Of a stretch of 64,000 nt of DNA, positions 25,909-56,351 are shown in pieces. Position 1 is the first letter of the stretch; each line of letters starts with the position of its first letter. The position numbers and the translations under genes were made by a program. Location: the NCBI GenBank assembly GCA_021613535.1, contig CP075493.1, forward strand, positions 5,642,001 to 5,706,000, written 5' to 3'. The notes under the pieces were generated by a model. It searched no databases. It was not told the origin of the DNA and saw nothing but the letters and a program-made list of their open reading frames with translations. The DNA is from Adineta vaga (Eukaryota > Animalia > Rotifera).

Positions 25909-26319
25909 TAAATTGTTTTTTTCTTTGTGTATATTTGTTTGAGTATTTGGATCAAACCAACTAAAGTTATTGACAGAAAAAAAAACAGATTTGAAAAATC
26001 TTTTAATAAAGTCAATTAGTCATTGATGGAATATGATCCATCTTTTCTCTTCGTCGTTCAAGTACTGCCTTACTTAGTGACGATATTATTCAAAAAAAAG
26101 TTTTCCTTATCATTACATGTTCCTCTCAAATCATATTAACAAATAATTCAATATAGTGACCGAGCCTAAGAGTCAAACAACAACTAGAGTGGAAATAACA
26201 AAAGAACATAGAAGGTACAAAGTAGCATCCTATGAATGAATATTGACGTAGGTTTGAATGAAAGAAAGAAGATGATGACAGTTAAAAGTATTCATATATT
26301 CCTCATACAAACACAACTA

Positions 26320-27251
26320 ACGGGTGGTCCAGAGTAAATGGGTAGTTTCATTTCAGGCATTTTTTGACGTATATTCTAAACCAATTTATTTTTGTTTTAT
26401 CACTAAAAGGTGCGCCGTGAAATTCTCTATCAGATGGAATAGCACTCGAGTATTTGTTTTTTAGAAAAACATATTTTATATTATGAACAGTGAAGACATT
26501 CAAAATGTCGTACTTTCTAAGTATAAGAATGTTGGTGATATACATAAAATATTTCATAATTTCAGTGGAAGTTTTGGATCATATCCGATTCAACACTGGT
26601 ACACGATCATCGACAAAAACGATGCAATCAATAAATTTTCATTCGAAACCGTTAGGAGGCATTCATAGTGTTTAAACGACGAGATCCATATAAACCAGAC
26701 TACGAAATAGCGAAATTACACAAAAAATGTATCACAACGAAAATTTGCCAAATTAAAAATGAGCGAAACAACGGCTTATGGGATTTTAATTGATAACGTA
26801 CATGTCAATCCTTACAAAATGCCTCAAGAATCTCCTTTTATAGAAAGGAGAAGAAAATTCAAAAACTATTATTCATTGGGTGACATATAACCTGAATAAA
26901 GATTATATCAAATGGTAGTTATTTTCGAATGAAAATTTATTGATTGCATCGTTTTTGTCGATGATCGTGTACCAGTGTTGAATCGGATATGATCCAAAAC
27001 TTCCACTGAAATTATGAAATATTTTATGTATATCACCAACATTCTTATACTTAGAAAGTACGACATTTTGAATGTCTTCACTGTTCATAATATAAAATAT
27101 GTTTTTCTAAAAAACAAATACTCGAGTGCTATTCCATCTGATAGAGAATTTCACGGCGCACCTTTTAGTGATAAAACAAAAATAAATTGGTTTAGAATAT
27201 ACGTCAAAAAATGCCTGAAATGAAACTACCCATTTACTCTGGACCACCCGT
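26320..27251. mobile_element. Non-autonomous Tc1/mariner-derived foldback element with 329-bp inverted arms and TA target-site duplication
   Basis: 26320-26648 is the reverse complement of 26923-27251 (termini ACGGGTGGTCCAGAG...CTCTGGACCACCCGT); TA at 26318-26319 and 27252-27253. Degenerate transposase N-terminus (MNSEDIQNVVLSKYKN...; KMSETTAYGILIDNVHVNPYK). Confidence 0.9.
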
Positions 27252-28738
27252 TAATTCAATTAGTTAATACTGATATGGTTAGTATTTTTCTTTCATAAAG
27301 AAAAGATCACGATTCTCAATAGTTTTGTAGTCGAACAAGATGAAATTGTCAAAACTCGAGATAATTTGTACAGTTCTTATTGAATTGATTCTTAGTACAC
27401 ATATTTAGTTTCATTGAGAAAAGGAAATTATTTATAACGATATTAAATACAGATATAAAGAAGAAAAAATATATTTATATTAATAGGAATGATTAGGATC
27501 ATTTACAAGCCGGAATACTATCATCGATATTCCTTGAAGTGGATGATGTTGAAATTGGTCGATCGAAATCTATGTCTCATTGAGTAGAGGACGCAGATAA
27601 ACGAAGGAAAAATAATGAGGAATTAAAATCTCCACAAGCTTATTAGGATTATTCGACTTTGTATGGTAAGAAGATTTCTATGCTTTATTTATGATTGTAT
27701 TCTCCATAGGATCCAATATATGATTACGAATATTTTCTGAATTACAACATCACAAATGCCAATCACTGATTTAAATATATACCGAACAATCGGAATATGA
27801 ATCTACACTCGCTCGACATTCATTTATCTCTGATGTTGATAAAAATTGTTGTCAAATACTTGTAAATACGACATTTTCATTTCAACTATCTACAGATTTA
27901 AATCTTCAAAGATATGGTCCGTAGATATTATCGATGTTTATTCGTATGATAATAAAACATCCGTCCGTAAATGTTGAATACTTCTTTAATAGAAGCATCA
28001 AATACTTTCAAAATAACAGCTCCACTCTTACAATATATCATTCTTCGAGTTTTCTACATTTTCACTTTCAGCGTGATTATGAAGGAATCTGTCAAAATTC
28101 ATTAATATGCACATGATTTGTTATTGTGAAAACCTTTTTTTGTAAAGATCGCAAATTCATGGAACATCGGATGATAGAAAATGTAAGAATATAGTTAAAT
28201 CATTAATTACGTCTTTTCCAGCATTAGAATACTTCAATTCATTGATAATGTTCTTTTCTTACGTAAAACGTTTTTTTTCCCATAATGATGAACAACTAGC
28301 ACTATAATACAAAAAAACATGTCTATTTATCATCTTAAAATGATCGTCATTTCTCGTAGACTTTCAAGAGTAACAATCCCATTTTTTAAATTATGAGATG
28401 GAACTTTGTTACGTATATTTGAGGATAGTCTAATTTAAAACGGACGCATTTACAGTGCATGACCTCAATTGTCGTGATGCGTAATGGCATAAAATGAATT
28501 AGGTTTTATGCTTTTACGCTTAACCTTAAAATAGAAATTATAAGCTACCATTCAAATCAATGAAAAATGTCAATTTTCTTTTGAATATTTTTTATTTTCG
28601 AGGAAAAATTATACAAGACTGTACAGTAATATTTATATGTACACATATATACAAATTAATAATGTATTGATTTTCGTTTCGGTTTTTTTAATAAGTATTA
28701 TATACAAATGTAGTCCTTCGAATCTCTGTCTATATCGA

Positions 28739-31391: not shown

Positions 31392-31411
31392 ATGGATGAA
31401 AATTTGAATAT

Positions 31412-31444
<33 letters not shown>

Positions 31445-34400
31445 TACTGACGAACTAAATTCTCTTCGTTCAATCTTACCATCAGATGATCATCTTCAAA
31501 TCCAACCATCTGGTGATTTTGAGCAAGTTCGCATCAGCCTTGAGCATGGAACTCAAGTTAGTTTCTTTCTTGATTCACTTCAAATGTTGAGTCAACCATT
31601 AACAGTCAATAATATACATGATTTGCGAATTAGCAAAGCATCAAGTAAATATTCATTGAGTCAAGAGCAATGGTCAGACATTCGCAAATATTTTGATGAA
31701 ACAATTCGACATTCAGACAAAACTACTTTACTTCGATCAGTTATTCAACTAGTCCAAGATCAACTATTACAAATAAGAATCGTAAATCAAAAACATAAAC
31801 AAAAGGAGAAAAAATTTGTCAAGACTGCCACAACATCAGAAACAGACGATTCATCAATATCGAATAAATTTCGTGGCGGTGATTTGATTTTTAATCGAAT
31901 ATTGCATGATAAAAATATAGATCGTACTCAAGTCATCATTGGATATGAAGATCGTTTTACTGGCATACATGAAATTGCCTTTAACGAATTCAAAAAAGTT
32001 CATGATCACGAAGTAAGATGCCGACAATGTTTGTAATATAATATATTGATGTTATTTGTAGTATGGTGTACCAATGCACCGTGTTCGATATTTCAAAATA
32101 GGTGGTCGTACAGTATGGGATAGAACGAAAAAGTTAGATTTATTAACGGGTAGCGAACAACAAAAAATCGAATTAGATGGTATGAAAGATAATTTGTTAT
32201 TTTTTTGTGTCAGCTTTTTATAAAATACTATAGCTAGTTTACTGAACATATTAAATCGATGACTGTATGACTTACAATGATTGTTAAAGATAATGTGTAT
32301 CAACCATGATGCCTTATTGTCTATTTGAATCAATGAAGGAAAAATTGTCAAACGGATCCCTCTATTTTCTACTTATTTATTGAACACAGAATAAATTTCT
32401 ATCGACTTTATAAAAACCATCATTGCTTGTTCGAATACATAGTTAGAAAAAGTAGTCCAACTCTTCAGTAGTGATTTCTATTGAAGTATCTTCTTTTTTT
32501 CAACAACTATACTTCATACTTTACATGATTGTTTCTTGCATGATAGATATGGGACAAAGTGTACCTGTCGCAGAAGGACTTTATCAATTTGATAAGTCTC
32601 TTGAACAATGGATTTCTCTTCCATACGTATCATTGACCAGTGACGATATCAAAACCACATCAACCAATGATACTATCCTTCCTCAAAATCCTCAGCTACT
32701 CACTTGGAACATTCTCTTCGATTATCATCATTCATCGCTTATCTACTCCCAACAACGATATCATGCAATGCTTCAAACTCTCAAATCACTTCTTCCCGAT
32801 CTTATCTGTTTACAAGAAGTTACACAACCTTTTCTTAAACTTCTTCTTAATGAAACATGGTTGCAAGAGAATAATTACTATATCATTATCATGCAAAGTG
32901 TCATTAATAGCGAGGAAAAGAAATTATATGGGCAACTAATGTTAATGAAAAACTTTCGACCTCGTGCATTTTCCATTACACCACTTGACCTTTTAGAAGA
33001 TGATGCAATGACAACAACTTCAAAAACAACGAAAGAAATGATCATTGCACGATTTGGATTGAATGTCAAAGTGACTATCGATATTGTTAATCTTCATCTT
33101 CATAGTAATCGATCGCGAAATGCAGATGAAAAACGATGTCAAGCACTTGAGAATCTTATCAAACAACTCAACATACAGAATTACATGTTGATTGGTGATT
33201 TTAATTTTGGTGATTATGATTTGAAAGAACAATGCTTGCTGCAGAAATATGAAAATGATGTTCATGATTTATGGAAAGATTTTTATGATCTTGAACAGGT
33301 AAGATATATGAATATTTACCCTTGTTTATCTCTTATCTTGTGATGTTGTATAGAATCCAGGATTTACTTATGATCCATCTCGTAATCTTTGTGCTCAAAT
33401 CACATCACGAACACAAATTAATCGTCGTTTTGATCGATATTTTATTCATACATTAAAAAATCTATATTATTCAGTTCAACATTTGAATATGATTGGTATA
33501 GATACTATTCCAGTTGATTCAACCAACGGTGATGATAGTAGTAACAAACGAATCAATATATCTGATCACTATGGCCTTCAACTAATAATTGATTTTCAAA
33601 CAAGATCAATTAGTCATCGATCAGCACTTGTCATTCTTCCAAGTACTGATCACTGGTCAATGATTGATAACTATCGTCAACAGTATGATCCATCCTATAA
33701 TCGTTGGCCACCACATGTGAATGTTTTATGGCCATTTTTTGATTTGAATGGATGTGAAGATGATGAAGAGAATATTCTCTTACCATTACGACTTCTATTG
33801 AGTAAATTTGGATCATTTGATGCTGAAGTAAATGAAATAGATACATTTGTGGAGAACAATGTATGCTTTATGAAAATGAATAACAAATCAAGAAGTAAAG
33901 TACAAGAATTGTATGAGGCAGTGAAACAATTATTTCCACAATGTTGTACAAATAAACGAAATGCTTATAATCCACACATGACTATTGCACAATTTGACAG
34001 CACAGAAAAACGTATTCAAGCAATGCCTACATTAAGTAAGTTATTTAATGAAATTGTCATCAGTATGTCAACAATCGAACATATTATTATATGATCAGTA
34101 TTTTGATGTATTGATTACTATCTGTTGAAAGACACCTTAAACGATAACTTTCGTTTATGTTTAGCTTTGGAATCATCATTCACATTTCCAGTTCAATATC
34201 TTTACATTCTACAACGACCACTTGACGATGATACCACACCTTTTCGCATTGCCTATCAATTACCATTAGGTTCTATTCTTCAACCATCATATTGCCAACA
34301 AGAACAACAAAAACTGCAAAATTTCTTTCATCAAATGAACCTTTACGAGAGTGAACAATCCTATAAACAAAAACAAGAGAAATTCAATAAACTTGCAACA

Positions 34401-35882
34401 TGTATTGATGAAATATTCAACAAAGATACGTTGCATAGTTTCATTCACCAATATCTTCCATATGGTAGTTTTCGAATTGTAAGTAAAGATGAATTTAGGA
34501 AGAATTTATCATGTTAGTGTTGTAATTTGTAGGGCGTAAAAGGAGAAGATGTTGATACAGTATTTGTATTGAATGAAGTGAAATCAAATGGTAATAGAAC
34601 AAGTTTTGATGAAACATTACTAAAAGTGAAGAACGATTCGAATACATTAAATAATCGCGTAGTTGAAATGCTAGAAACACAGATAAACACATGTTTTAAA
34701 GATGAACTATTGTGGTGCAGAAAAGTTCAAGCTTTATATCCGATCATAACGATGTTATTTCGTGATCAAACAAAAGTGGAAATATTTGTACAAATTAAAA
34801 CAATCAAAGAATATTCGGATGAAACAAATAATCAAAATAAACAAAATTCTGAAGAATCCATACATGGAGTAAGTGAAAGATAGAGAAAAAGATCGAATTT
34901 ATTGATATTGATCTATAGATAGATTTATAACAGTGTATTATTTCTTCTGTTCTAGGTTCATGAAATTGAACATTTACTTGTGCATGCTCGTTCTCCGCCT
35001 ATCTTTCAACATCTTCTTGCTTTCGTTCGTACATGGGCACAAAATGTTGGATTGTACGGACAAATATTCAGTTATTTGGGTGGTTTTTCATGGGCTACAT
35101 TATGTGCACATATTTGTCATTCATTTCTATCACCTATCGATTCTCTTTCATCGATCGAACACTTTTCCATTGATGATTTCTTTGCATTAGTTTACAGATT
35201 CTTCTCAACATATGCACAATTTAATTGGACAACACAATCACTTCGTTTACATCCAAAATCATCGGTACAAATAACTCATCTTGATAAACCATCAATATTG
35301 ACGCGTGGTGCTATGCGTATTATATCTCCAAGTCCACCTTATAATAACACTGGTCGTGCCACTCTCAATTCTACTCGCGATCTGATTGTAAAAGGCTTTC
35401 AACATGTCTTTGATCTACTCCATACCATCAACACTATCACTACGGATGATAAATCGAATGCACTTAGACAAATCCTTCAACTAAACAATGATTTTCCAAA
35501 TGAAAAGATCAAAACATTATTACAATTGACATTATCAGGTGAAAATAAAAAAGAATTAGATGAATGGATTGGATGGATGAGATCACGTTTAGCTTATTTT
35601 CTAAATGAGTGTGAAAATGAATGCCGTTTAAGTTTACAAACACAAAGTTGTATTGAATATCGCATGAACAATAATGAAGCACTGTATTCAATTGGTTTTC
35701 AACTTGATGAAAATGCATTAAATATTCAGCGAAATTTTCATCATTGTTTAAACAAATTTCTCGAACAATTTAATGTCTATCGAAATCGTACAAAAACTAT
35801 GAACATCTCACACAAACTAGTATCTGCACATGAGTGGAAAATGGAACGAATGCAACCTAAACCACAAAGGACAAGAAAATAA
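31392..35882 (+). CDS. Multi-domain putative RNA repair/processing enzyme (about 1,250 aa): RWD-like, MJ1316(DUF504), EEP nuclease/phosphatase, 2H phosphoesterase, poly(A) polymerase; 7 exons
   Basis: MJ1316: IFNRILHD...IIGYEDRFTG...VPMHRVRYFK...VWDR. EEP: TWNIL, DLICLQEV, NLHL, GDFN, FDRY, SDHYGL. 2H: RWPPHVNV, NPHMTIAQ. PAP: YGSFRIGVKGEDVD, FVRTWAQNVGLYGQIFSYLGGFSWA, MRIISPSPPYNN. Confidence 0.88.
31412..31443 (+). repeat. (ACA)n trinucleotide repeat encoding poly-Thr
   Basis: aacaacaac... run at the 5' end of the CDS. Confidence 0.9.
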
Positions 35883-36434
35883 ATGATCACATGTATTAGG
35901 ATTTTTTGAATGAATAAAGAAAATATGTAAACAAGTTTTTTTATCATTGAAAATCGAATGCATTTGTCTGTTTATTCTATGCACTTATCTAATAATGTGA
36001 ATAAAACTCAAGTCAATTTCGACACGAACAAGTACTTCTCTGAATCATAGTCACAATAATTTTATGTTCGATTTATTATTTTATCTATTCATCTAACATC
36101 AAAGGATCATTATTTCTTCATCGAATAACTACTTATCGATTTCTATGCAACAATTTAGTTAATAGTACTAAAACTGATTTAGCATGAGAATGACAGTCGC
36201 TCTTATCTGTATTTGTTTACAGTGCTAATTTAATGAAAAACGAATCTCGCGTATAAACAAGATATTCAATTAGCATATGGTTTTCTTATGATTGTAAAGA
36301 AAAAAAAACCATCGCGAGCGAATAGTGTATGTAAATGTACTGAAGTAAGAATGGAGAAACAGAAACAATGATTACCTTGAAGTTGTTGGCAACGATCGTA
36401 GTGTCAGTTACATTTACATCAAATAGACGAACAA

Positions 36435-46092: not shown

Positions 46093-47567
46093 TTATTCTA
46101 ATCGAAAAACACATTGCATTAATTGATCAGATATATTAGTTGATTTTTCCCTTCGAACAATATCTTCCATAACATTCATCAATGTTTGAAATTGTAAGAT
46201 TTGTTTCTTTATAATATCCATTGATTGTATTGCTTCATCTTCTGAATATAAATGTTTTAAATATCGCCAAAGTAATGCAATAAAAAACTCATGAAGTTCT
46301 TCGATACGAAATTTATCGGAATAATCATTACATTCATAAATAGTAAAGATAAAAACAATCAAGGCTAATTTTAAAATCAATGGATGCTCATAAAAACGAT
46401 AGAGACATTGACGTGCTTGCGACATATGATGATGAAAATCTTGATGGATCCATTTACTCATGAAATAACCAATGCTTGGACTTTCAGAAAAGTTTTGAAT
46501 AAGAATATCATGTAAATGAATGATATTAATAAGATTTGATTTTATCAATCGAACTTCATCGTCTAGATTTAATTGTTTAAATTGAGGAATTTTTTTATAA
46601 AATTCAATCAAGGATTTATGAATTGCACTTTCTTTATCAAGAAATTGTATTAATGACATCGATTCATTGTAATGATTGAAACGTAAACCATCTGTTTGAT
46701 TTGCTGTTGATTGATAAGCATGCGTAATGTTATTTAACAAAATATTATCTGCTTCATCCAAATTTCCATGAAAACCAATATTTCTTACACTAAATATCTA
46801 TGATATTTTCAAAAATAAGATTATCATTTTCTGACCATTGTGTATTTACCGATTGATCAACATCGCCTGATTTTATCATCAAACGTTTTTTCTTTCGTAC
46901 AACAAGTGGAAGATTAAGAACAGGTGGTGCGTCGCATCCTGATTTATTTCGTTTTCTTTCCTGTTTCATCAGCTTTTGTAATTGTCGTAGTTTTGTTTCT
47001 TCTTCTGTTCGAATCCAATCTTTTCGCATTTTGATATCGAAACATTTCTTTAGTCGACAATATGTACATTGTCGACGTGTATGAATATTGATGATACATG
47101 AACCAGAAAAATGACATTTCAAATCGGACTAGAAACAAATATATATATATTCGTTTATTGCCTTATTATTTACGAACTCTTACGGTTTCTCGTAAAGCAT
47201 TTCGACGAAAAAATGCTTTACATGATTCGCATGTGATTTGATCGAAGTTATAACCCGTTGCTGGTGCACCACAAACACGACATATGAGATCACATTGAAG
47301 AGTTTCTATTTGAGAATCATGTGTTTGTTGTAAATGAGACTAAATTAAAAGAAAGATATTAAATTTTCAATAAATATTAAAATTATCACAACTTACTTCG
47401 TCGGATTTAAGTAGATGTATGTATTGTTCGACATCTGATAGATGATCTTGATTATACGTTTCATGGGGCGCAGAATCCAACAATGCAGGAAATAAATCAG
47501 TGTAATTCAATTCATCAAATGGTAAGATATGATCCCAATCGGAATGATTTAAAATCGTAGTTGTCAT
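46093..47567 (-). CDS. Nuclear hormone receptor, HR96/NR1J (VDR/PXR-related) type, copy A, 4 exons
   Basis: CRVCGAPATGYNFDQITCESCKAFFRRNAL, CHFSGSCIINIHTRRQCTYCRLKKCFDIKM; LBD signature FYKKIPQFKQLNLDDEVRLIK. Confidence 0.9.
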
Positions 47568-48223
47568 TATACAGAACTGAGTTTGTTTTTTTCTTTTTTG
47601 TATTCAGTCCAAAGTATTGTATTGTAAAAATTTTCTTTCTCTAGCAATTGGCGTTTTGTATTATTACCTCTCCTTCTCAAAAACAAATGTCAATACATTA
47701 TGTTTTTTTCTCTTCCTTTTTATAGGAATGGAATACGCCTAATGATGTTTTTACGTCTTTATTTTTTTTTTCTTCACATATATATAACCCGATGAATCAT
47801 ACGTCAGGTAGAACGAACAAAAAAAAAGTATTCAGAAGCCGTTTAATAAATGACGGTGCGTCATCGAATCGAATACGATTATGAAGAAAAAGTCATGTCT
47901 CTTGCTTAGAAACCAATATTTTGGAGATATTGTCATAATATCTGATAATAAATGGGCGATAAAGTGAGTAATCGATCAAAGTCATAACTGAGTTCTGTTA
48001 TATAAACAAATGAGATGTTTTTCTATAAATAAGACACAAGCGTAATTTATTTTCAATTTGAAAAATAAAAGAACAATATACAACAATAAACTGTATTTTC
48101 TCTGCTAAAATTCATCCCAAGAAGAAAAAGAAAACATTTAGCTAGCATATATAAATATATACATGTGTTTGAAACAAATCTGCAGATTTATATTTTACAT
48201 TTTGATGTCGAAAACTATTTTTA

Positions 48224-49818
48224 TTAAACTTCTGTTTGGCCATTCAATTCAAAGATTGTTTCTATTAATTCATGAAATTTTTCCTTTTTAAGCATTTGTC
48301 GCATATGGCTTTCCAAAATAACCATCAGTAATTGATAACGTAACATTTGTGTGACAATTATTTCCATCGCTAATACTGCATCGTTTTCATCAAACAGATA
48401 ATTTAAATATCGCCAAAGTAATGCTGTATAGAAATCTTGATGTTTCATCAATAGTTTCTTAGTTTTGTATTCATCGAATTCGTTTGAACTATGTGTCGCA
48501 GATAGATTCATACTGAATAGAAAAACAATTAATGCAAGGTTTAATAGTAAAGGATATTTCATAAAACGATTGAAACGATGATACGTTCGAGACATTTGTT
48601 CATGAAATTCTACATTAATCCATTTCGACATATGTTTACCAATTTGAGGAGGCTCTTCGAAATTATCCACAAGGATATGATGTAAATGTATAATTGTTCG
48701 AAAATTGGATTTAATTAAGTGAACCTGATCATCAATATGTAATCGTTTAAAATCAGGAATTTGTTTAAAGAACATAATTAATGATATGTGCATCGAACAT
48801 TCATCATTTATGAATTGTGAGAATGTGGTATTGTCAGTATATTTTGTAATAAACGTACGATCTATTTTATCGGCTTCTATTTGATAAGCATGCTTGATAT
48901 TATTTAACCAGATATTATCTTCATTATCTAGATTCCTGTGAAAACCAAAGTATGTTCCATTGAATGCCTATATACACAACAAATTAAATATTATATATGC
49001 ACTGATTGATTCTTTTACGTACTGGTTGAAGAATATTGAATGGTTTATTCATCAAACGTTTTTTCTTTCGTACAACAAGTGGAAGATTAACAGCAGGTAG
49101 TACGTCGCATCCTGATTTATTTCGTTTTCTTTCCTGTTTCATCAGCTTTTGTAATTGTCGTAGTTTTGTTTCTTCTTCTGTTCGAATCCAATCTTTTCGC
49201 ATTTTGATATCGAAACATTTCTTTAGTCGACAATATGTACATTGTCGACGTGTATGAATATTAATGATACATGAACCAGAAAACCGACACTTCATATCAG
49301 GCTAGAAACAAATTCAAAGTTATTCAATTCGTTTGAACTATAAGTACTACAAAAACGTAATCATGGATATATAAACGAGAACTTCAATTGTTCACTGAAT
49401 GATAAGCGGTGATTAGTAATATGAATACTCTTACCATATGTTTCAAAGCATTTCGACGAAAAAATGCTTTACATGATTCACATGTGACTTGATCAAAATT
49501 ATGACCTGTGGCTGGTGCACCACAAACACGACATGTGAGATCACATTGAAGTGTTTCTGATGATAAAGATGCTTGTGATTGATCATTCTATGAAAATAAA
49601 GAAAAGAATTAAGATAGAATATACTCTATCGAAACTTGATCTACTTCGGGCGATAAATCCAGGTCATTCAAAATCATTTCAATGTTATCATTATTATCAT
49701 TGAAATGAGTAAAATTATTGAAGTCTTCATCAGGAAATATATCATTCGGTAGTGAAAATAGATCATCGACGTCAAATAATGGAAGAGAAGTACGATATTG
49801 ATTACTTAAGAACGTCAT
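48224..49818 (-). CDS. Nuclear hormone receptor, HR96/NR1J type, copy B, 4 exons
   Basis: CRVCGAPATGHNFDQVTCESCKAFFRRNAL; LBD FFKQIPDFKRLHIDDQVHLIK; same exon layout as copy A. Confidence 0.9.
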
Positions 49819-52365: not shown

Positions 52366-52508
52366 CTGATTTTTGTATTATTTTTTTTAATTTAATAAGA
52401 ACAAAAAATAGATAATGTGAGAAAACAAATATTTGCATACAGATGTTTGTTATCCCATTCTTGTTGCTAATCAAAATTTGTGAAAGCATAATAATAACAG
52501 TGCAAAGA

Positions 52509-54319
52509 ATGGTTAACTTGAAATTAGGTTCGATTTGTTTATTACTTGCAATTCTATTACCAATTGTAAATGGATTCGGATTAAAAGGTGTAAATGGTGG
52601 TACAGATTGCGCCACATGTACTATTGTTCTTGGTCTTGTTGAAAAATTATCCGTTGTCTATAATGAAAGTATGATCAATTCTCTTGAACGAGTTTGTAAT
52701 GCTTTACCCACTGATTTTCGTGTCTATTGTAAAGTTACAATTGAATTTTTGGGTATGTTTATTCTCTTGGTTATCGTTCTAAACCAAAAATATAATTCAT
52801 CTGTAGGTCCAATTATTCTCGATGGATTTATTAAAAATGAAACACCAGATGTCATTTGTCATGCATTACAACTTTGTACTGACGACGCTGGTCAAGTGAA
52901 ATGCCGTCTTTTCCCATCGAAATCGACTCTATCAGTACCACAACGTGCTTCACATCTGCATCATCGACATTTACTGCCACAATATGATTTATCAGATTCA
53001 AAGATTTGTCAAATACCTGGCATTGCAGAAATTTGTAAAATTCTAGAGAATGTCTTTAATAATCATGTTCCATTAGTTGATTTGGATAATGATAAATTTG
53101 GAACAGAATCTTCATTTCGTGGCAGTTCATGGCGTGGAAAAGATTGCAACGACTTTTCATCACAAATCCATCCTGGTGCTCATGTTTCTCAAGGTGACGA
53201 TGTTATTGATCATAATTGTAATGGTATTTTTGGAATGAATTCAGCAAGTGGTAGACCATGGGAAGAAGAATTTTGTAATGAAACACAACGAATGGGTATT
53301 GCTGTGTTAGGTGATTCGATTTCTGCTCATTTTCATATTCCTGAACAATGGCTAGATGCAAGTCAATTCTCACCAGAAGCATTTGAACATCTGATGTTTA
53401 TTTTGGAGAATGAATTAGATTGGCCACAATTATCGGCAGTTACAGGACATACTAATGTGAGTTGGCCGAATATAGTCGGTATGAAATCTATTTTATAATA
53501 TATATTTGAGAAAATAATATGAATTTATCTAGGTCCTACTCGATCACTGTATGCTCGTTTATTTGATCTTGATCATTGTAATCATCGTGATTATCAAAAT
53601 ATTGCCGTTAACGGTGCAAACAGTGGATCCATTCTTGATATAGCTAAGTCGCTAAGACGTAATCAACAGAATGATGTACCACTGCTTGTCATCTACTCCT
53701 TAGTGGGTAATGATGTTTGTAATGGTCATCCAAATACTATTGATGATATGACAACTGTGGAACAGATGCATAAAAATGTGATGAACGGATTAGCTTACCT
53801 AGATACAATATTACCAAAAGGTAGTCATGTGCTCACCACCGGATTAGCAAACGGTAGTTTATTATATGAACTTTTACACGATTGCATTCATCCATTCGGT
53901 CGTGCTGGTGTACCATTTACTTATAGACAAATATATGACTATTTATCATGTTTACAAATTTCACCATGTAATGGATGGTTAACTTCTAATGATACACTAC
54001 GCGCATTAACATCACAACGAGCAGTAGAACTCTTGGTGCAGTACGTAATGCAACATTTACTTATCAAGCGAAAAATTTCGATACTGATTATACTGATTTT
54101 CCATTTGACCAAGTTTTTCGAGAATGGGAAGCACAAGGTGGTGAACCATGGCAGCTGATTGAAAGTGTTGATGGTTTTCATATTAATCAATATGGACATG
54201 CTGGTCTTTCCGATGCTCTTTGGTCATGGTTAGAAAAAGAAAAACCACAATGGCTACCATCAATGAATCCACATAATGCAGATATCGAACGTGTATTTAA
54301 AGATCAAGGTGGATATTAG
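52509..54319 (+). CDS. AOAH: Acyloxyacyl hydrolase, copy 1 (1-nt frameshift near 54033)
   Basis: Signal peptide, saposin-like NGGTDCATC..., RGSSWRGKDCND, DHNCNGIFG, catalytic LGDSISAHFHIP, CNHRDYQNIAVNGA, GNDVCNG; VDGFH and VFKDQGGY lie in a shifted frame. Confidence 0.92.
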
Positions 54320-54528
54320 GATTAATAACAGTGAATGTTGCATCGATGGTTTTACTCGCGTTTATAAAAACAACTATTTCACTTTTAATTAGATGATTTT
54401 TTTTCGATCTAAATTGAATCTAATAAAAAGAAACATCTGACATATTTCTCATCAATCAATACTTTTTTCGGAGGTGTATATGTACGTGATATTCTCACGA
54501 TTTCTTTTCACACAAAGAAGGATTATCG

Positions 54529-56351
54529 ATGTCGACAGCAGCTATTAATTGGATTAGTTTATTACTGATCATTTTTGTATCAACCGTAGATGGTCGTTTT
54601 ATGGCCTAAATTCTGGTGTTAATGGTGGTGCAGATTGTGCAACATGTTCGATTGTCTTAGGTCTTGTTGATCATCTTACGATTATTTATAATGAAACGGC
54701 TGCTCTTGCACTAGAACGATTGTGTACATATTTACCAGGTGAATTTAAAATCTATTGTAAGACTGCAGTTGATTTTCTAGGTAATTCTAATGACTGCTTA
54801 CTAGAAAGATCAGCAGGGAATATATATCATTTTAGGGCCGCTTATCATCGATGGTTTTATCAAAGGTGATAATCCGGATGTTATTTGTCATGCATTGAAA
54901 TTTTGTCACGATGATCCTGGTCAATCTAAATGTCGTATTTATCCGTCGAAATCGACTCTATCAATACCACAACGTGCTTTACATCTGCGTCAACAACATC
55001 CATTGATTGATTTATTCTTAGCAAAATCAAAAATTTGTCAAATACCTGGCATTGCAGAAATCTGTAAGATACTAGAGAATGTTTTCAATCATCATGAACC
55101 ACTGATTGATCTTGATCGAGATCAGTTTGGTACAGAAGCAACGTTTCGTGGTAGTTCATGGCGTGGAAAAGATTGCAACGACTTTTCATCACAAATCCAT
55201 CCTGGTGCTCATGTTTCTCAAGGTGACGGTGTTATTGATCATAATTGTAATGGTATTTTTGGAATGAATTCAGCAAGTGGTAGACCATGGGAAGAAGAAT
55301 TTTGTAATGAAACACAACGAATGGGTATTGCTGTGTTAGGTGATTCGATTTCTGCTCATTTTCATATTCCTGAGCAATGGTTGGATGCAAGTCAATTCTC
55401 ACCAGAAGCATTTGAACATCTGATGTTTATTTTGGAGAATGAATTAGATTGGCCACAATTATCAGCAAGTACTGGTCATCTTAATATTAGTTGGCCAAAT
55501 ATAGTTGGTAAGACACTTGTCTTCGTACTTTATTCTTAATCTATATAGATGTCCATATAATAGGTCCCACTCGATCACTGTATACTCGTTTATTTGATCT
55601 TGATCATTGTAACCATCGTGATTATCAGAATATTGCTGTTAATGGAGCTCGTAGTAGTACCATGACTAATATTATGAAATCGTTAGCACGTTCACCACAT
55701 GATGATGTACCTTTACTTGTTATCTATTCCTTAGTTGGCGATGATGTTTGTAATGGCCATCCAGATACCATCGATCACATGACAACTGTTGAAGAGATGC
55801 AGAAAAATGTCATGACTACCTTAACTTATCTTGATACAATTTTACCGAAAGGTAGCCATGTCCTTACCACTGGATTAGGTAATGGTAGTATGTTATACGA
55901 TCTTTTACACACCCGTCTTCATCCATTTGGTCGTGTGGGACCACCTATTACGTATCCACAAATGTATGACTATTTATCATGTTTACAAATTTCACCATGT
56001 AATGGATGGTTAACTTCTAATGATACATTACGCGCATTAACATCACAACGAGCAGTAGAACTCTCTGGTGCAGTACGTAATGCAACATTTACTTATAAAC
56101 CAGAGCATTATGATGTTGCTTATCTTGATTTTCCATTTGATGAAGCTATTCAAGAATGGGAAGCACAAGGTGGTGAACCATGGCAGCTGATTGAAAGTGT
56201 TGATGGTTTTCATATTAATCAATATGGACATGCACTCGTTTCTGATGTACTCTGGTCATGGTTAGAAAAAGAAAAACCTCAATGGTTGCCATCAATGAAT
56301 CCACATAATGCAGACATTGAACGTGTATTCAAAGATCAAGATGGATACTAA
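54529..56351 (+). CDS. AOAH: Acyloxyacyl hydrolase, copy 2 (1-nt frameshift near 54600)
   Basis: Same motifs and intron positions as copy 1. The signal peptide frame stops at TAA unless one T is added to the TTTT run at 54597-54600. Confidence 0.9.

What the first reader, a model, noticed from the sequence alone, without database searches (positions are those of the whole stretch)
31392..35882. All-in-one RNA end-healing/tailing enzyme (MJ1316 + EEP + 2H + poly(A) polymerase) in an animal-type genome
Seen: seven exons join into about 1,250 aa carrying an RWD-like start (DELNSLRSI), an MJ1316 domain, an EEP domain with an intact N/E/D-N/D/D-H motif set, a 2H phosphoesterase (HVN and HMT motifs) and a canonical-type PAP with GS...DxD. 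Established: the animal protein LENG9 has MJ1316 + 2H without EEP or PAP; fusions with EEP and PAP are described mainly from bacteria, fungi and microbial eukaryotes as predicted RNA-damage repair proteins. Inference: one polypeptide could bind a 2',3'-cyclic phosphate end, open it (2H), dephosphorylate it (EEP) and extend the 3'-OH (PAP). It may be a horizontally acquired, intronised gene relevant to desiccation-, radiation- or ribotoxin-induced RNA breaks.
Basis: partly seen in the sequence, partly recalled or inferred. Interest (0 to 1): 0.85.

Follow-up and report, generated by a model that had tools for sequence, protein, structure and literature searches.

The report
Rotifer five-domain RNA end-repair enzyme
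Rotifers carry an intact, spliced gene for one five-part protein that is predicted to clean up the broken ends of RNA molecules and add nucleotides to them; it is a rotifer version of a fusion also found in bacteria, fungi, amoebae and a springtail, not a recent bdelloid import from bacteria.

Summary
The gene is real: seven exons, 1,249 aa, all six introns spliced in transcript-type contigs. The window is Adineta vaga; NCBI's model (931 aa) loses the polymerase's C-terminal half. Order: RWD fold, MJ1316, TDP2-like EEP, 2H, canonical-type poly(A) polymerase, with all catalytic motifs present, though the third polymerase carboxylate is Glu. The four-domain core is not new. It has the same order in cyanobacteria, myxobacteria and actinobacteria (beside an RNA ligase-kinase gene in 32 of 37 actinobacterial loci), in Capsaspora and in the springtail Folsomia, and is permuted in a fungus and an amoeba. 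This scan noted it before in bacteria and giant viruses. Bdelloid and Brachionus copies form one clade outside the sampled bacteria (AU p=0.0013), so it predates bdelloids and their desiccation tolerance. Origin is either transfer from a microbial eukaryote or patchy retention; unresolved. Likely function: bind a 2',3'-cyclic-phosphate end, dephosphorylate it, add nucleotides. No activity or stress-expression data were found. What is new is modest: an RWD-capped animal variant with an altered polymerase site in a tractable animal.

The parts
31392..35882 (+). Whole gene, ATG to TAA, 7 exons, 1,249 aa (Adineta vaga; NCBI locus I4U23_001795, whose model is truncated)
31443..31796 (+). RWD-fold domain, aa 18-135
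   Evidence: AlphaFold2 pLDDT 83; best structural matches are RWD domains, RWDD1 Z 8.5 rmsd 4.6 over 111, GCN2 Z 7.8
31869..32124 (+). MJ1316 domain, aa 160-228, split by intron 1; predicted reader of RNA cyclic-phosphate ends
   Evidence: PF04457 E 4e-8 and 2e-5; best-conserved module, 88% to A. ricciae, 63% to Brachionus
32690..33596 (+). EEP phosphoesterase, aa 295-578, split by intron 3, full catalytic set; nearest solved relatives TDP2
   Evidence: PF03372
33621..34271 (+). 2H phosphoesterase, aa 587-760, split by intron 4, HxN and HxT motifs
   Evidence: PF13563 E 5e-22
34314..34868 (+). Poly(A)-polymerase-type nucleotidyltransferase domain, aa 775-941, split by intron 5 inside the GS...DxD loop; G825 S826 D835 D837 E912
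34956..35507 (+). PAP central domain, aa 942-1125; absent from the NCBI model
   Evidence: PF04928 E 9e-14
35508..35879 (+). C-terminal domain aligning with the RNA-binding domain of canonical PAP, aa 1126-1249
   Evidence: profile alignment to PAP gamma and alpha runs into this region
35883..36031 (+). 3' untranslated region ending at a probable poly(A) site
   Evidence: one contig of run X5 ends at 36031 with 8 loose A

Best explanation
The gene encodes a single five-domain protein that likely binds broken RNA ending in a 2',3'-cyclic phosphate, strips that phosphate and then adds untemplated nucleotides to the freed 3'-OH. Shown: the spliced gene, the domain order and the catalytic residues. 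Inferred: MJ1316 reads the cyclic end; EEP is the indispensable phosphatase and 2H an auxiliary ring-opener; the class I PAP module extends the end, with base choice uncertain; the extended RNA is then either re-ligated by separate RNA ligases or marked for decay. The RWD domain is a eukaryote-type protein-docking addition. The gene was already present in the common ancestor of bdelloids and monogononts and did not come from any sampled bacterial group.
For: Gene and splicing. EEP N301, E337, H430, D464, N466, D568, H569: unchanged in 17 of 17 bdelloid (one E337D), 11 of 11 monogonont-like and 57 of 57 bacterial rows; GS and D837 in all 85, D835 in 84 of 85. PAP module closest to canonical PAPs, E 3e-31, against 2e-5 for GLD2. 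Same order in 57 of 84 bacterial loci; an RNA ligase-kinase gene lies upstream on the same strand in 32 of 37 actinobacterial genome loci. In Entosiphon the polymerase slot after RWD-MJ1316-EEP-2H holds a primase-polymerase instead, so the conserved need is nucleotide addition after healing. MJ1316 as cyclic-end reader fused to RNA repair domains: PMC6514570 passage. EEP phosphatase clearing 3' phosphates so that a poly(A) polymerase can act is established for ANGEL2/MTPAP: PMC9525292 passages. Rotifer clade support 96-99, bacteria-rotifer grouping rejected.
Against: No member has a biochemical test in the papers I could search. The EEP domain resembles TDP2, a 5'-tyrosyl phosphodiesterase, more than ANGEL2 (E 2e-9 against 0.0085). 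Bdelloid polymerases have Glu at the third carboxylate (15 of 17) and differ at three positions conserved in canonical PAP (N to H940, K to R966, N to Q977). The first 2H motif is HxN, not the textbook HxT/S (shared by 33 of 57 bacterial rows). No RNA ligase or kinase family was found among the 23 neighbouring ORF pieces scanned. MJ1316's role is itself a prediction.
Confidence: 0.55

Rival explanations
1. The protein heals both sides of a break for re-ligation: the TDP2-like EEP removes 5' adducts or caps, 2H alone opens the cyclic 3' end, and the polymerase adds only one or a few nucleotides to rebuild a ligatable end (rRNA or tRNA repair after ribotoxin attack).
For: Foldseek top rows are all TDP2 and the sequence profile agrees. 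Ligase-kinase neighbour in actinobacteria. Bdelloids strongly upregulate horizontally acquired RNA ligase genes against a fungal pathogen (PMC11258130 passages).
Against: Forms without 2H (14 of 84 bacterial loci, Balamuthia) still keep MJ1316, EEP and PAP, so EEP must be able to free the 3' end there. I could not match this gene to the upregulated set.
Confidence: 0.2
2. In bdelloids the polymerase module is weak, inactive or no longer A-specific, and the protein is mainly an end-binding phosphatase.
For: E912, H940, R966, Q977 and the shortened loop depart from canonical PAP; residue roles are recalled from PAP structures, not tested.
Against: GS and DxD unchanged in 17 of 17 bdelloid rows; NTase and central domains are 67% and 77% identical to the A. 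ricciae orthologue, like the other domains at 71-74%.
Confidence: 0.15
3. Origin, rival A: an old eukaryotic gene inherited vertically and lost from most animals, possibly trimmed to LENG9-like proteins elsewhere. Origin, rival B (slightly preferred, about 0.5 against 0.4): separate transfers from microbial eukaryotes into the rotifer ancestor and into springtails.
For: For A: same core in Capsaspora and Folsomia; a clade of rotifers, their two unnamed sister rows and the Folsomia pair is not rejected, p 0.14. For B: rotifers and Folsomia fall apart in every tree, an animals-only clade gives p 0.03, Folsomia lacks the RWD and keeps the 10-residue loop, and both lineages are known for gene transfer.
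Against: Only 28 proteins were looked up by name and only the best 150 of 484 clusters at E 1e-30 were seen, so other animals may be hidden. Trees are unrooted, deep nodes weak, composition uneven; the careful mixture-model search did not finish. LENG9 was not fetched.
Confidence: 0.4
4. A bdelloid-specific gene taken from bacteria as a desiccation or radiation adaptation.
For: Identical domain order in bacteria; bdelloids carry many foreign genes.
Against: Brachionus orthologues share the clade and the two-residue deletion; rotifers plus cyanobacterial rows p 9e-6, rotifers plus the 15-row bacterial clade p 0.0013; RWD is a eukaryotic domain; the gene lies among housekeeping genes.
Confidence: 0.04
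5. A nucleotide-signal enzyme: the NTase makes, and 2H/EEP destroy, a 2'-5' or cyclic oligonucleotide messenger.
For: 2H proteins of the AKAP7 type cleave 2'-5' oligoadenylates (recalled); weak AKAP7_NLS match.
Against: The NTase is canonical-PAP-like with an RNA-binding C-terminal region, and the bacterial neighbours are ligase-kinase genes.
Confidence: 0.05

Closest known systems
MJ1316-EEP-2H-PAP fusion proteins of bacteria (Calothrix BAY66805.1, Nostoc, Myxococcota, Streptomyces, Nonomuraea), annotated 'poly(A) polymerase' or 'RNA 2',3'-cyclic phosphodiesterase'; predicted RNA repair proteins (Burroughs and Aravind 2016, not held, content recalled)
   Same: Same four domains in the same order, same catalytic motifs.
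   Different: Rotifer protein adds an N-terminal RWD, has six introns, a two-residue shorter GS-DxD loop, Glu as third carboxylate in bdelloids, no ligase-kinase neighbour; 14-30% identity per domain.
Eukaryotic members: Capsaspora CAOG_08076, Folsomia candida LOC110844676, Balamuthia, Pelomyxa, Catenaria, Soliformovum, Entosiphon, Ascomycota clusters
   Same: Capsaspora and Folsomia have the same four-domain order; Entosiphon and Soliformovum have RWD before MJ1316.
   Different: Catenaria and Pelomyxa are permuted (2H-EEP-PAP-MJ1316); Entosiphon has a primase-polymerase instead of PAP; the Soliformovum record has no polymerase; none groups with rotifers. All five domains together were seen only in the rotifer clade (11 of 159 rows).
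Canonical poly(A) polymerase (PAPOLA, PAPOLG, yeast Pap1)
   Same: NTase, central and C-terminal domains align along their length, E 3e-31.
   Different: Third Asp is Glu, three conserved active-site positions differ, and it is fused to end-healing domains.
ANGEL2 with MTPAP (animal mitochondria)
   Same: Works like it: an EEP phosphatase clears a terminal phosphate so that a poly(A) polymerase can act (PMC9525292 passages).
   Different: Two separate proteins; the rotifer EEP is closer to TDP2 than to ANGEL2.
LENG9 (animals)
   Same: MJ1316 plus 2H (recalled; not fetched).
   Different: No EEP or PAP, and a CCCH finger in front (recalled); the rotifer protein has RWD there.

Membership tests
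MJ1316-EEP-2H-PAP RNA-end repair fusion | All four domains in one polypeptide | tested here: met
   Pfam per exon and on full-length orthologues; spliced joints across all six introns
MJ1316-EEP-2H-PAP RNA-end repair fusion | Order MJ1316, EEP, 2H, PAP | tested here: met
   Same order in 57 of 84 bacterial loci and 90 of 159 protein rows
MJ1316-EEP-2H-PAP RNA-end repair fusion | Intact EEP and 2H catalytic residues | tested here: met
   All present in the window protein; first 2H motif HxN as in 33 of 57 bacterial rows
MJ1316-EEP-2H-PAP RNA-end repair fusion | Healing and extension of cyclic-phosphate RNA | not testable with these tools
   Needs an in vitro assay; no report found
RWD domain | alpha-beta-beta-beta-beta-alpha-alpha fold of about 110 residues | tested here: met
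   Model pLDDT 83; best matches RWDD1 Z 8.5, Knl1 Z 8.1, GCN2 Z 7.8; Foldseek top five rows RWD, E 0.03-0.08; Pfam RWD passes its cut-off in monogonont-like P0056
RWD domain | Binding to GCN1 (subset of RWD proteins) | not tested
   No rotifer GCN1 sequence at hand; many RWD folds bind other partners (PMC10931611 passages)
Canonical (class I) poly(A) polymerase | NTase, central and RNA-binding domains | tested here: met
Canonical (class I) poly(A) polymerase | Three catalytic aspartates | tested here: not met
   D835, D837 and E912; Glu in 15 of 17 bdelloid rows, Asp in 11 of 11 monogonont-like and 57 of 57 bacterial rows
Canonical (class I) poly(A) polymerase | Conserved ATP-site residues (SLNG Asn, KLWA Lys, IYSN Asn; roles recalled) | tested here: not met
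   H940, R966, Q977 at the aligned positions
ANGEL2/CCR4-type EEP phosphatase | Closest EEP relatives are ANGEL, nocturnin or CCR4 | tested here: not met
   TDP2 ranks first by fold and by profile; nocturnin and ANGEL2 weaker
LENG9 | CCCH finger plus MJ1316 plus 2H only (recalled) | tested here: not met
   No zinc-finger family in exon 1; RWD, EEP and PAP present
Bdelloid-specific horizontally acquired gene from bacteria | Absent from monogononts and nested among bacterial sequences | tested here: not met

The most novel reading that the evidence does not exclude
The RWD domain docks this enzyme on GCN1 at stalled or collided ribosomes, making it a one-chain heal-and-tail station for RNA cut during ribosome quality control or by fungal ribotoxins, and two transfer-prone animal lineages (rotifers, springtails) recruited the family independently; the bdelloid polymerase has changed its base preference.
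Probability: 0.12. Interest if true: 0.8.

Novelty: new variant of a known kind. Interest (0 to 1): 0.45.

Why it matters
A widespread family of predicted RNA-end repair fusions appears to have no biochemical test in the literature I could search. An intact, expressed copy in Adineta vaga, with a natural 2H-eroded paralogue as internal control, makes the heal-and-tail hypothesis testable in an animal. The RWD cap suggests a link to ribosome surveillance. The corrected gene model matters in practice: the NCBI protein lacks half the polymerase. The finding does not explain bdelloid desiccation or radiation tolerance, since the gene is older than bdelloids.

Tried and rejected
No whole genome was held, so synteny and other paralogues were not searched; the paralogue I4U23_019387 came from the protein search. 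The run finder listed no holder on record as RNA; kinds are guesses, and contigs give no expression level. Five viral-contig scans and the phage collection found no relative, so the giant-virus copies in earlier notes are unconfirmed here. The first bacterial genome scan with rotifer patterns found none. The metagenome scan for the rotifers' sister rows gave 4 loci; in the two whose ORFs I listed the 2H match was not fused to EEP or PAP. Profile-profile comparison of the bdelloid N-terminus with monogonont N-termini or protist RWDs was not significant (probability 2.5% or less), so common descent of the RWDs rests on position and fold only. The near-full-length model of a Didymodactylos orthologue was poor in the polymerase (mean pLDDT 61.6) and was used only for the EEP fold search. 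Stress expression: neither locus number occurs in the main text or readable supplement of PMC10809525, whose data tables were too large to read; in PMC11258130 the term polynucleotide adenylyltransferase is enriched among early upregulated A. vaga genes (4 of 41), but those ids could not be mapped to this gene. The supplement of PMC13342648 could not be read. Unread supplements may bear on transfer status and expression. The NCBI model's 42-nt gap in exon 1 and its read-through into intron 6 were rejected: no joint there and intron 6 is spliced. One planned AU test (rotifers, sister rows, Folsomia clade and Capsaspora) was not run for lack of time.
Full report
Observation. Pfam finds MJ1316, Exo_endo_phos, 2_5_RNA_ligase2 and PAP_central in that order. 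Exon 4 is 100% identical to Adineta vaga I4U23_001795, on an 18-Mb contig, so the window is this bdelloid rotifer; neighbouring ORFs are ordinary eukaryotic or animal genes such as a proteasome subunit, DnaJ, an amiloride-sensitive channel, fibrinogen C, Mob1 and RPS17 (15 of 23 ORF pieces matched a family). Eight public runs were laid, as contigs. Seven show spliced joints; X10 covers the introns and shows none. Introns 1-4 and 6 are joined exactly at GT-AG in several runs, intron 5 exactly in X15 and with a neighbouring allelic difference in X1, X2 and X12. Contigs overlap as exons 1-5, 4-6 and 5-7; none spans the whole gene. One contig ends in A residues at 36031. The NCBI model of 931 aa is wrong in two places and lacks the last 308 residues.

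Anatomy. The N-terminal 135 residues have no Pfam match in the window protein, but a model from 36 aligned sequences (pLDDT 83) matches RWD domains best: RWDD1 Z 8.5 (rmsd 4.6, 111 aligned), Knl1 8.1, GCN2 7.8, and the top five Foldseek rows are RWD domains at weak E-values. The EEP domain has its full residue set, unchanged across 17 bdelloid, 11 monogonont-like and 57 bacterial rows apart from one Glu-to-Asp (D524 in 24 of 25 rows, the miss being a fragment). Its nearest solved relatives are TDP2, then nocturnin and ANGEL2. The 2H domain has both histidines. The polymerase aligns with canonical poly(A) polymerases over NTase, central and C-terminal domains (E 3e-31; GLD2 2e-5). It keeps GS and DxD, has Glu at the third carboxylate in 15 of 17 bdelloid rows, and differs at three positions that canonical enzymes conserve (their ATP-binding roles are recalled). 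Bdelloid and monogonont-like rows share a loop two residues shorter than in all 57 bacterial rows except one with a local gap.

Distribution. Orthologues occur in Adineta, Rotaria and Didymodactylos, often as two or more paralogues, and in Brachionus plicatilis and B. calyciflorus. A scan of bacterial genomes seeded with three bacterial proteins confirmed 450 stretches and kept 80, from Cyanobacteriota, Myxococcota and Actinomycetota. Of all 84 bacterial loci held, 57 have the four domains in one ORF in the rotifer order and 14 lack 2H; an RNA ligase-kinase gene lies upstream on the same strand in 32 of the 37 actinobacterial genome loci (the query was actinobacterial, so its absence elsewhere is weak). 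A profile search of 1.84 billion representatives gave 484 clusters at E 1e-30; the best 150 were seen. Of 159 rows examined, 79 have the colinear core without RWD, 11 have it with the rotifer-type N-terminus, and 16 are permuted with MJ1316 last. Twenty-eight proteins were looked up by name: they include Folsomia candida, Capsaspora owczarzaki, Balamuthia, Pelomyxa, Soliformovum, Nematostelium and Entosiphon; Catenaria came. The ESM Atlas shows clusters dominated by Rotifera, Actinomycetota and Ascomycota (one source). So the family is patchy but wide, and two animal lineages are named. Most rows are unnamed, so other animals are not excluded. Earlier notes of this scan report the fusion in bacteria and giant viruses; my viral scans did not recover any.

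Origin. In trees of 171, 59 and 42 rows (domains cut out and concatenated, rows with fewer than three of four enzyme domains left out, subsets chosen by hand) bdelloids and monogononts are sisters (support 94-97), two unnamed rows are next (97-99), the named bacteria sit in a clade without rotifers, and Folsomia and Capsaspora sit elsewhere. The N-terminal half and the polymerase half give the same picture, with one long row entering the rotifer group in the latter. AU tests under LG+G4: rotifers with cyanobacterial rows p 9e-6; with the 15-row bacterial clade p 0.0013; with the Folsomia pair p 0.03; with sister rows and the Folsomia pair p 0.14. These groups were chosen after seeing the first tree, the trees are unrooted and the careful mixture search did not finish. 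A recent bacterial transfer into bdelloids is rejected. Transfer from a microbial eukaryote into the rotifer ancestor (about 0.5) and retention of an old eukaryotic gene lost in most animals (about 0.4) cannot be separated.

Mechanism. Shown: gene, order, motifs. From the literature: MJ1316 is described as recognising RNA 2',3'-cyclic ends and as fused to RNA repair domains across eukaryotes (PMC6514570, one passage); ANGEL2, an EEP protein, removes terminal phosphates that otherwise block polyadenylation (PMC9525292, passages). Inferred: MJ1316 holds the broken end, EEP and 2H remove the phosphate, the polymerase extends the hydroxyl. EEP looks like the essential healer because 2H is lost or eroded repeatedly while EEP never is. 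The swap of PAP for a primase-polymerase in Entosiphon and the ligase-kinase neighbour in actinobacteria suggest rebuilding ends for ligation; tailing for decay is equally possible in a eukaryote. Several RWD proteins, RWDD1 and GCN2 among them, bind GCN1, which sits on collided ribosomes (PMC10931611, passages); that makes a ribosome link an attractive but untested idea, since other RWD folds bind other partners.

Stress link. PMC11258130 (passages and searches of 14 of 16 supplementary files) reports RNA ligase functions upregulated by fungal infection and not enriched in desiccation, and includes PF13563 among its ligase domains; I could not tie this gene to those lists. PMC10809525 (passages, one supplement) names other ligases and unnamed EEP genes; its tables were unreadable here. 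There is thus no evidence here for or against stress induction.

What is known. Burroughs and Aravind 2016 is not held; that it describes such fusions is recalled and is consistent with the citing passage. Searches for MJ1316, DUF504 and PF04457 gave two papers holding MJ1316, one read in passage and one seen as a listing only; LENG9 was seen as a listing only. No paper on the rotifer gene or on activity of the family turned up in these searches.

Verdict. A real, intact, expressed gene and a new variant of a known, predicted kind: RWD-capped, rotifer-wide, with an altered polymerase site.

Noticed in passing
window 26315-26648 and 26923-27256: Perfect 334-nt inverted repeat with a 274-nt spacer, about 4 kb upstream of the gene; foldback or MITE-like element, or an assembly palindrome.
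   Followed up: no
window 31392-35882: The NCBI model UJR14808.1 (931 aa) drops 14 residues of exon 1 and stops in intron 6, losing the PAP central and C-terminal domains.
   Followed up: yes
P0031, P0032, P0034, P0017, P0023: In the second bdelloid paralogue clade the 2H motifs are eroded while EEP and NTase motifs stay intact; P0014 in the same clade keeps them.
   Followed up: partly
P0127 (Entosiphon sulcatum), P0202: MJ1316-EEP-2H fused to an archaeo-eukaryotic primase-polymerase (PPL4) in place of PAP; P0127 also has a weak RWD match.
   Followed up: partly
P0102 (Folsomia candida LOC110844676): A springtail has the four-domain fusion with intact motifs on a 19.5-Mb contig, apart from rotifers in all trees.
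   Followed up: partly
P0032 (Adineta ricciae): Paralogue record joined to cold-shock domains at the C-terminus, possibly an annotation merge.
   Followed up: no
window 52416-56351: Two tandem saposin plus GDSL lipase genes, acyloxyacyl-hydrolase-like (name recalled).
   Followed up: no
window 46093-48967: Two similar ORFs (234 and 247 aa) that look like nuclear-receptor ligand-binding domains by eye; no Pfam match at E 0.001.
   Followed up: no
P0062, P0186: Unnamed proteins of the permuted form; P0062 carries a P-loop kinase (AAA_33) inside the fusion, the module that is a separate neighbouring gene in actinobacteria.
   Followed up: no
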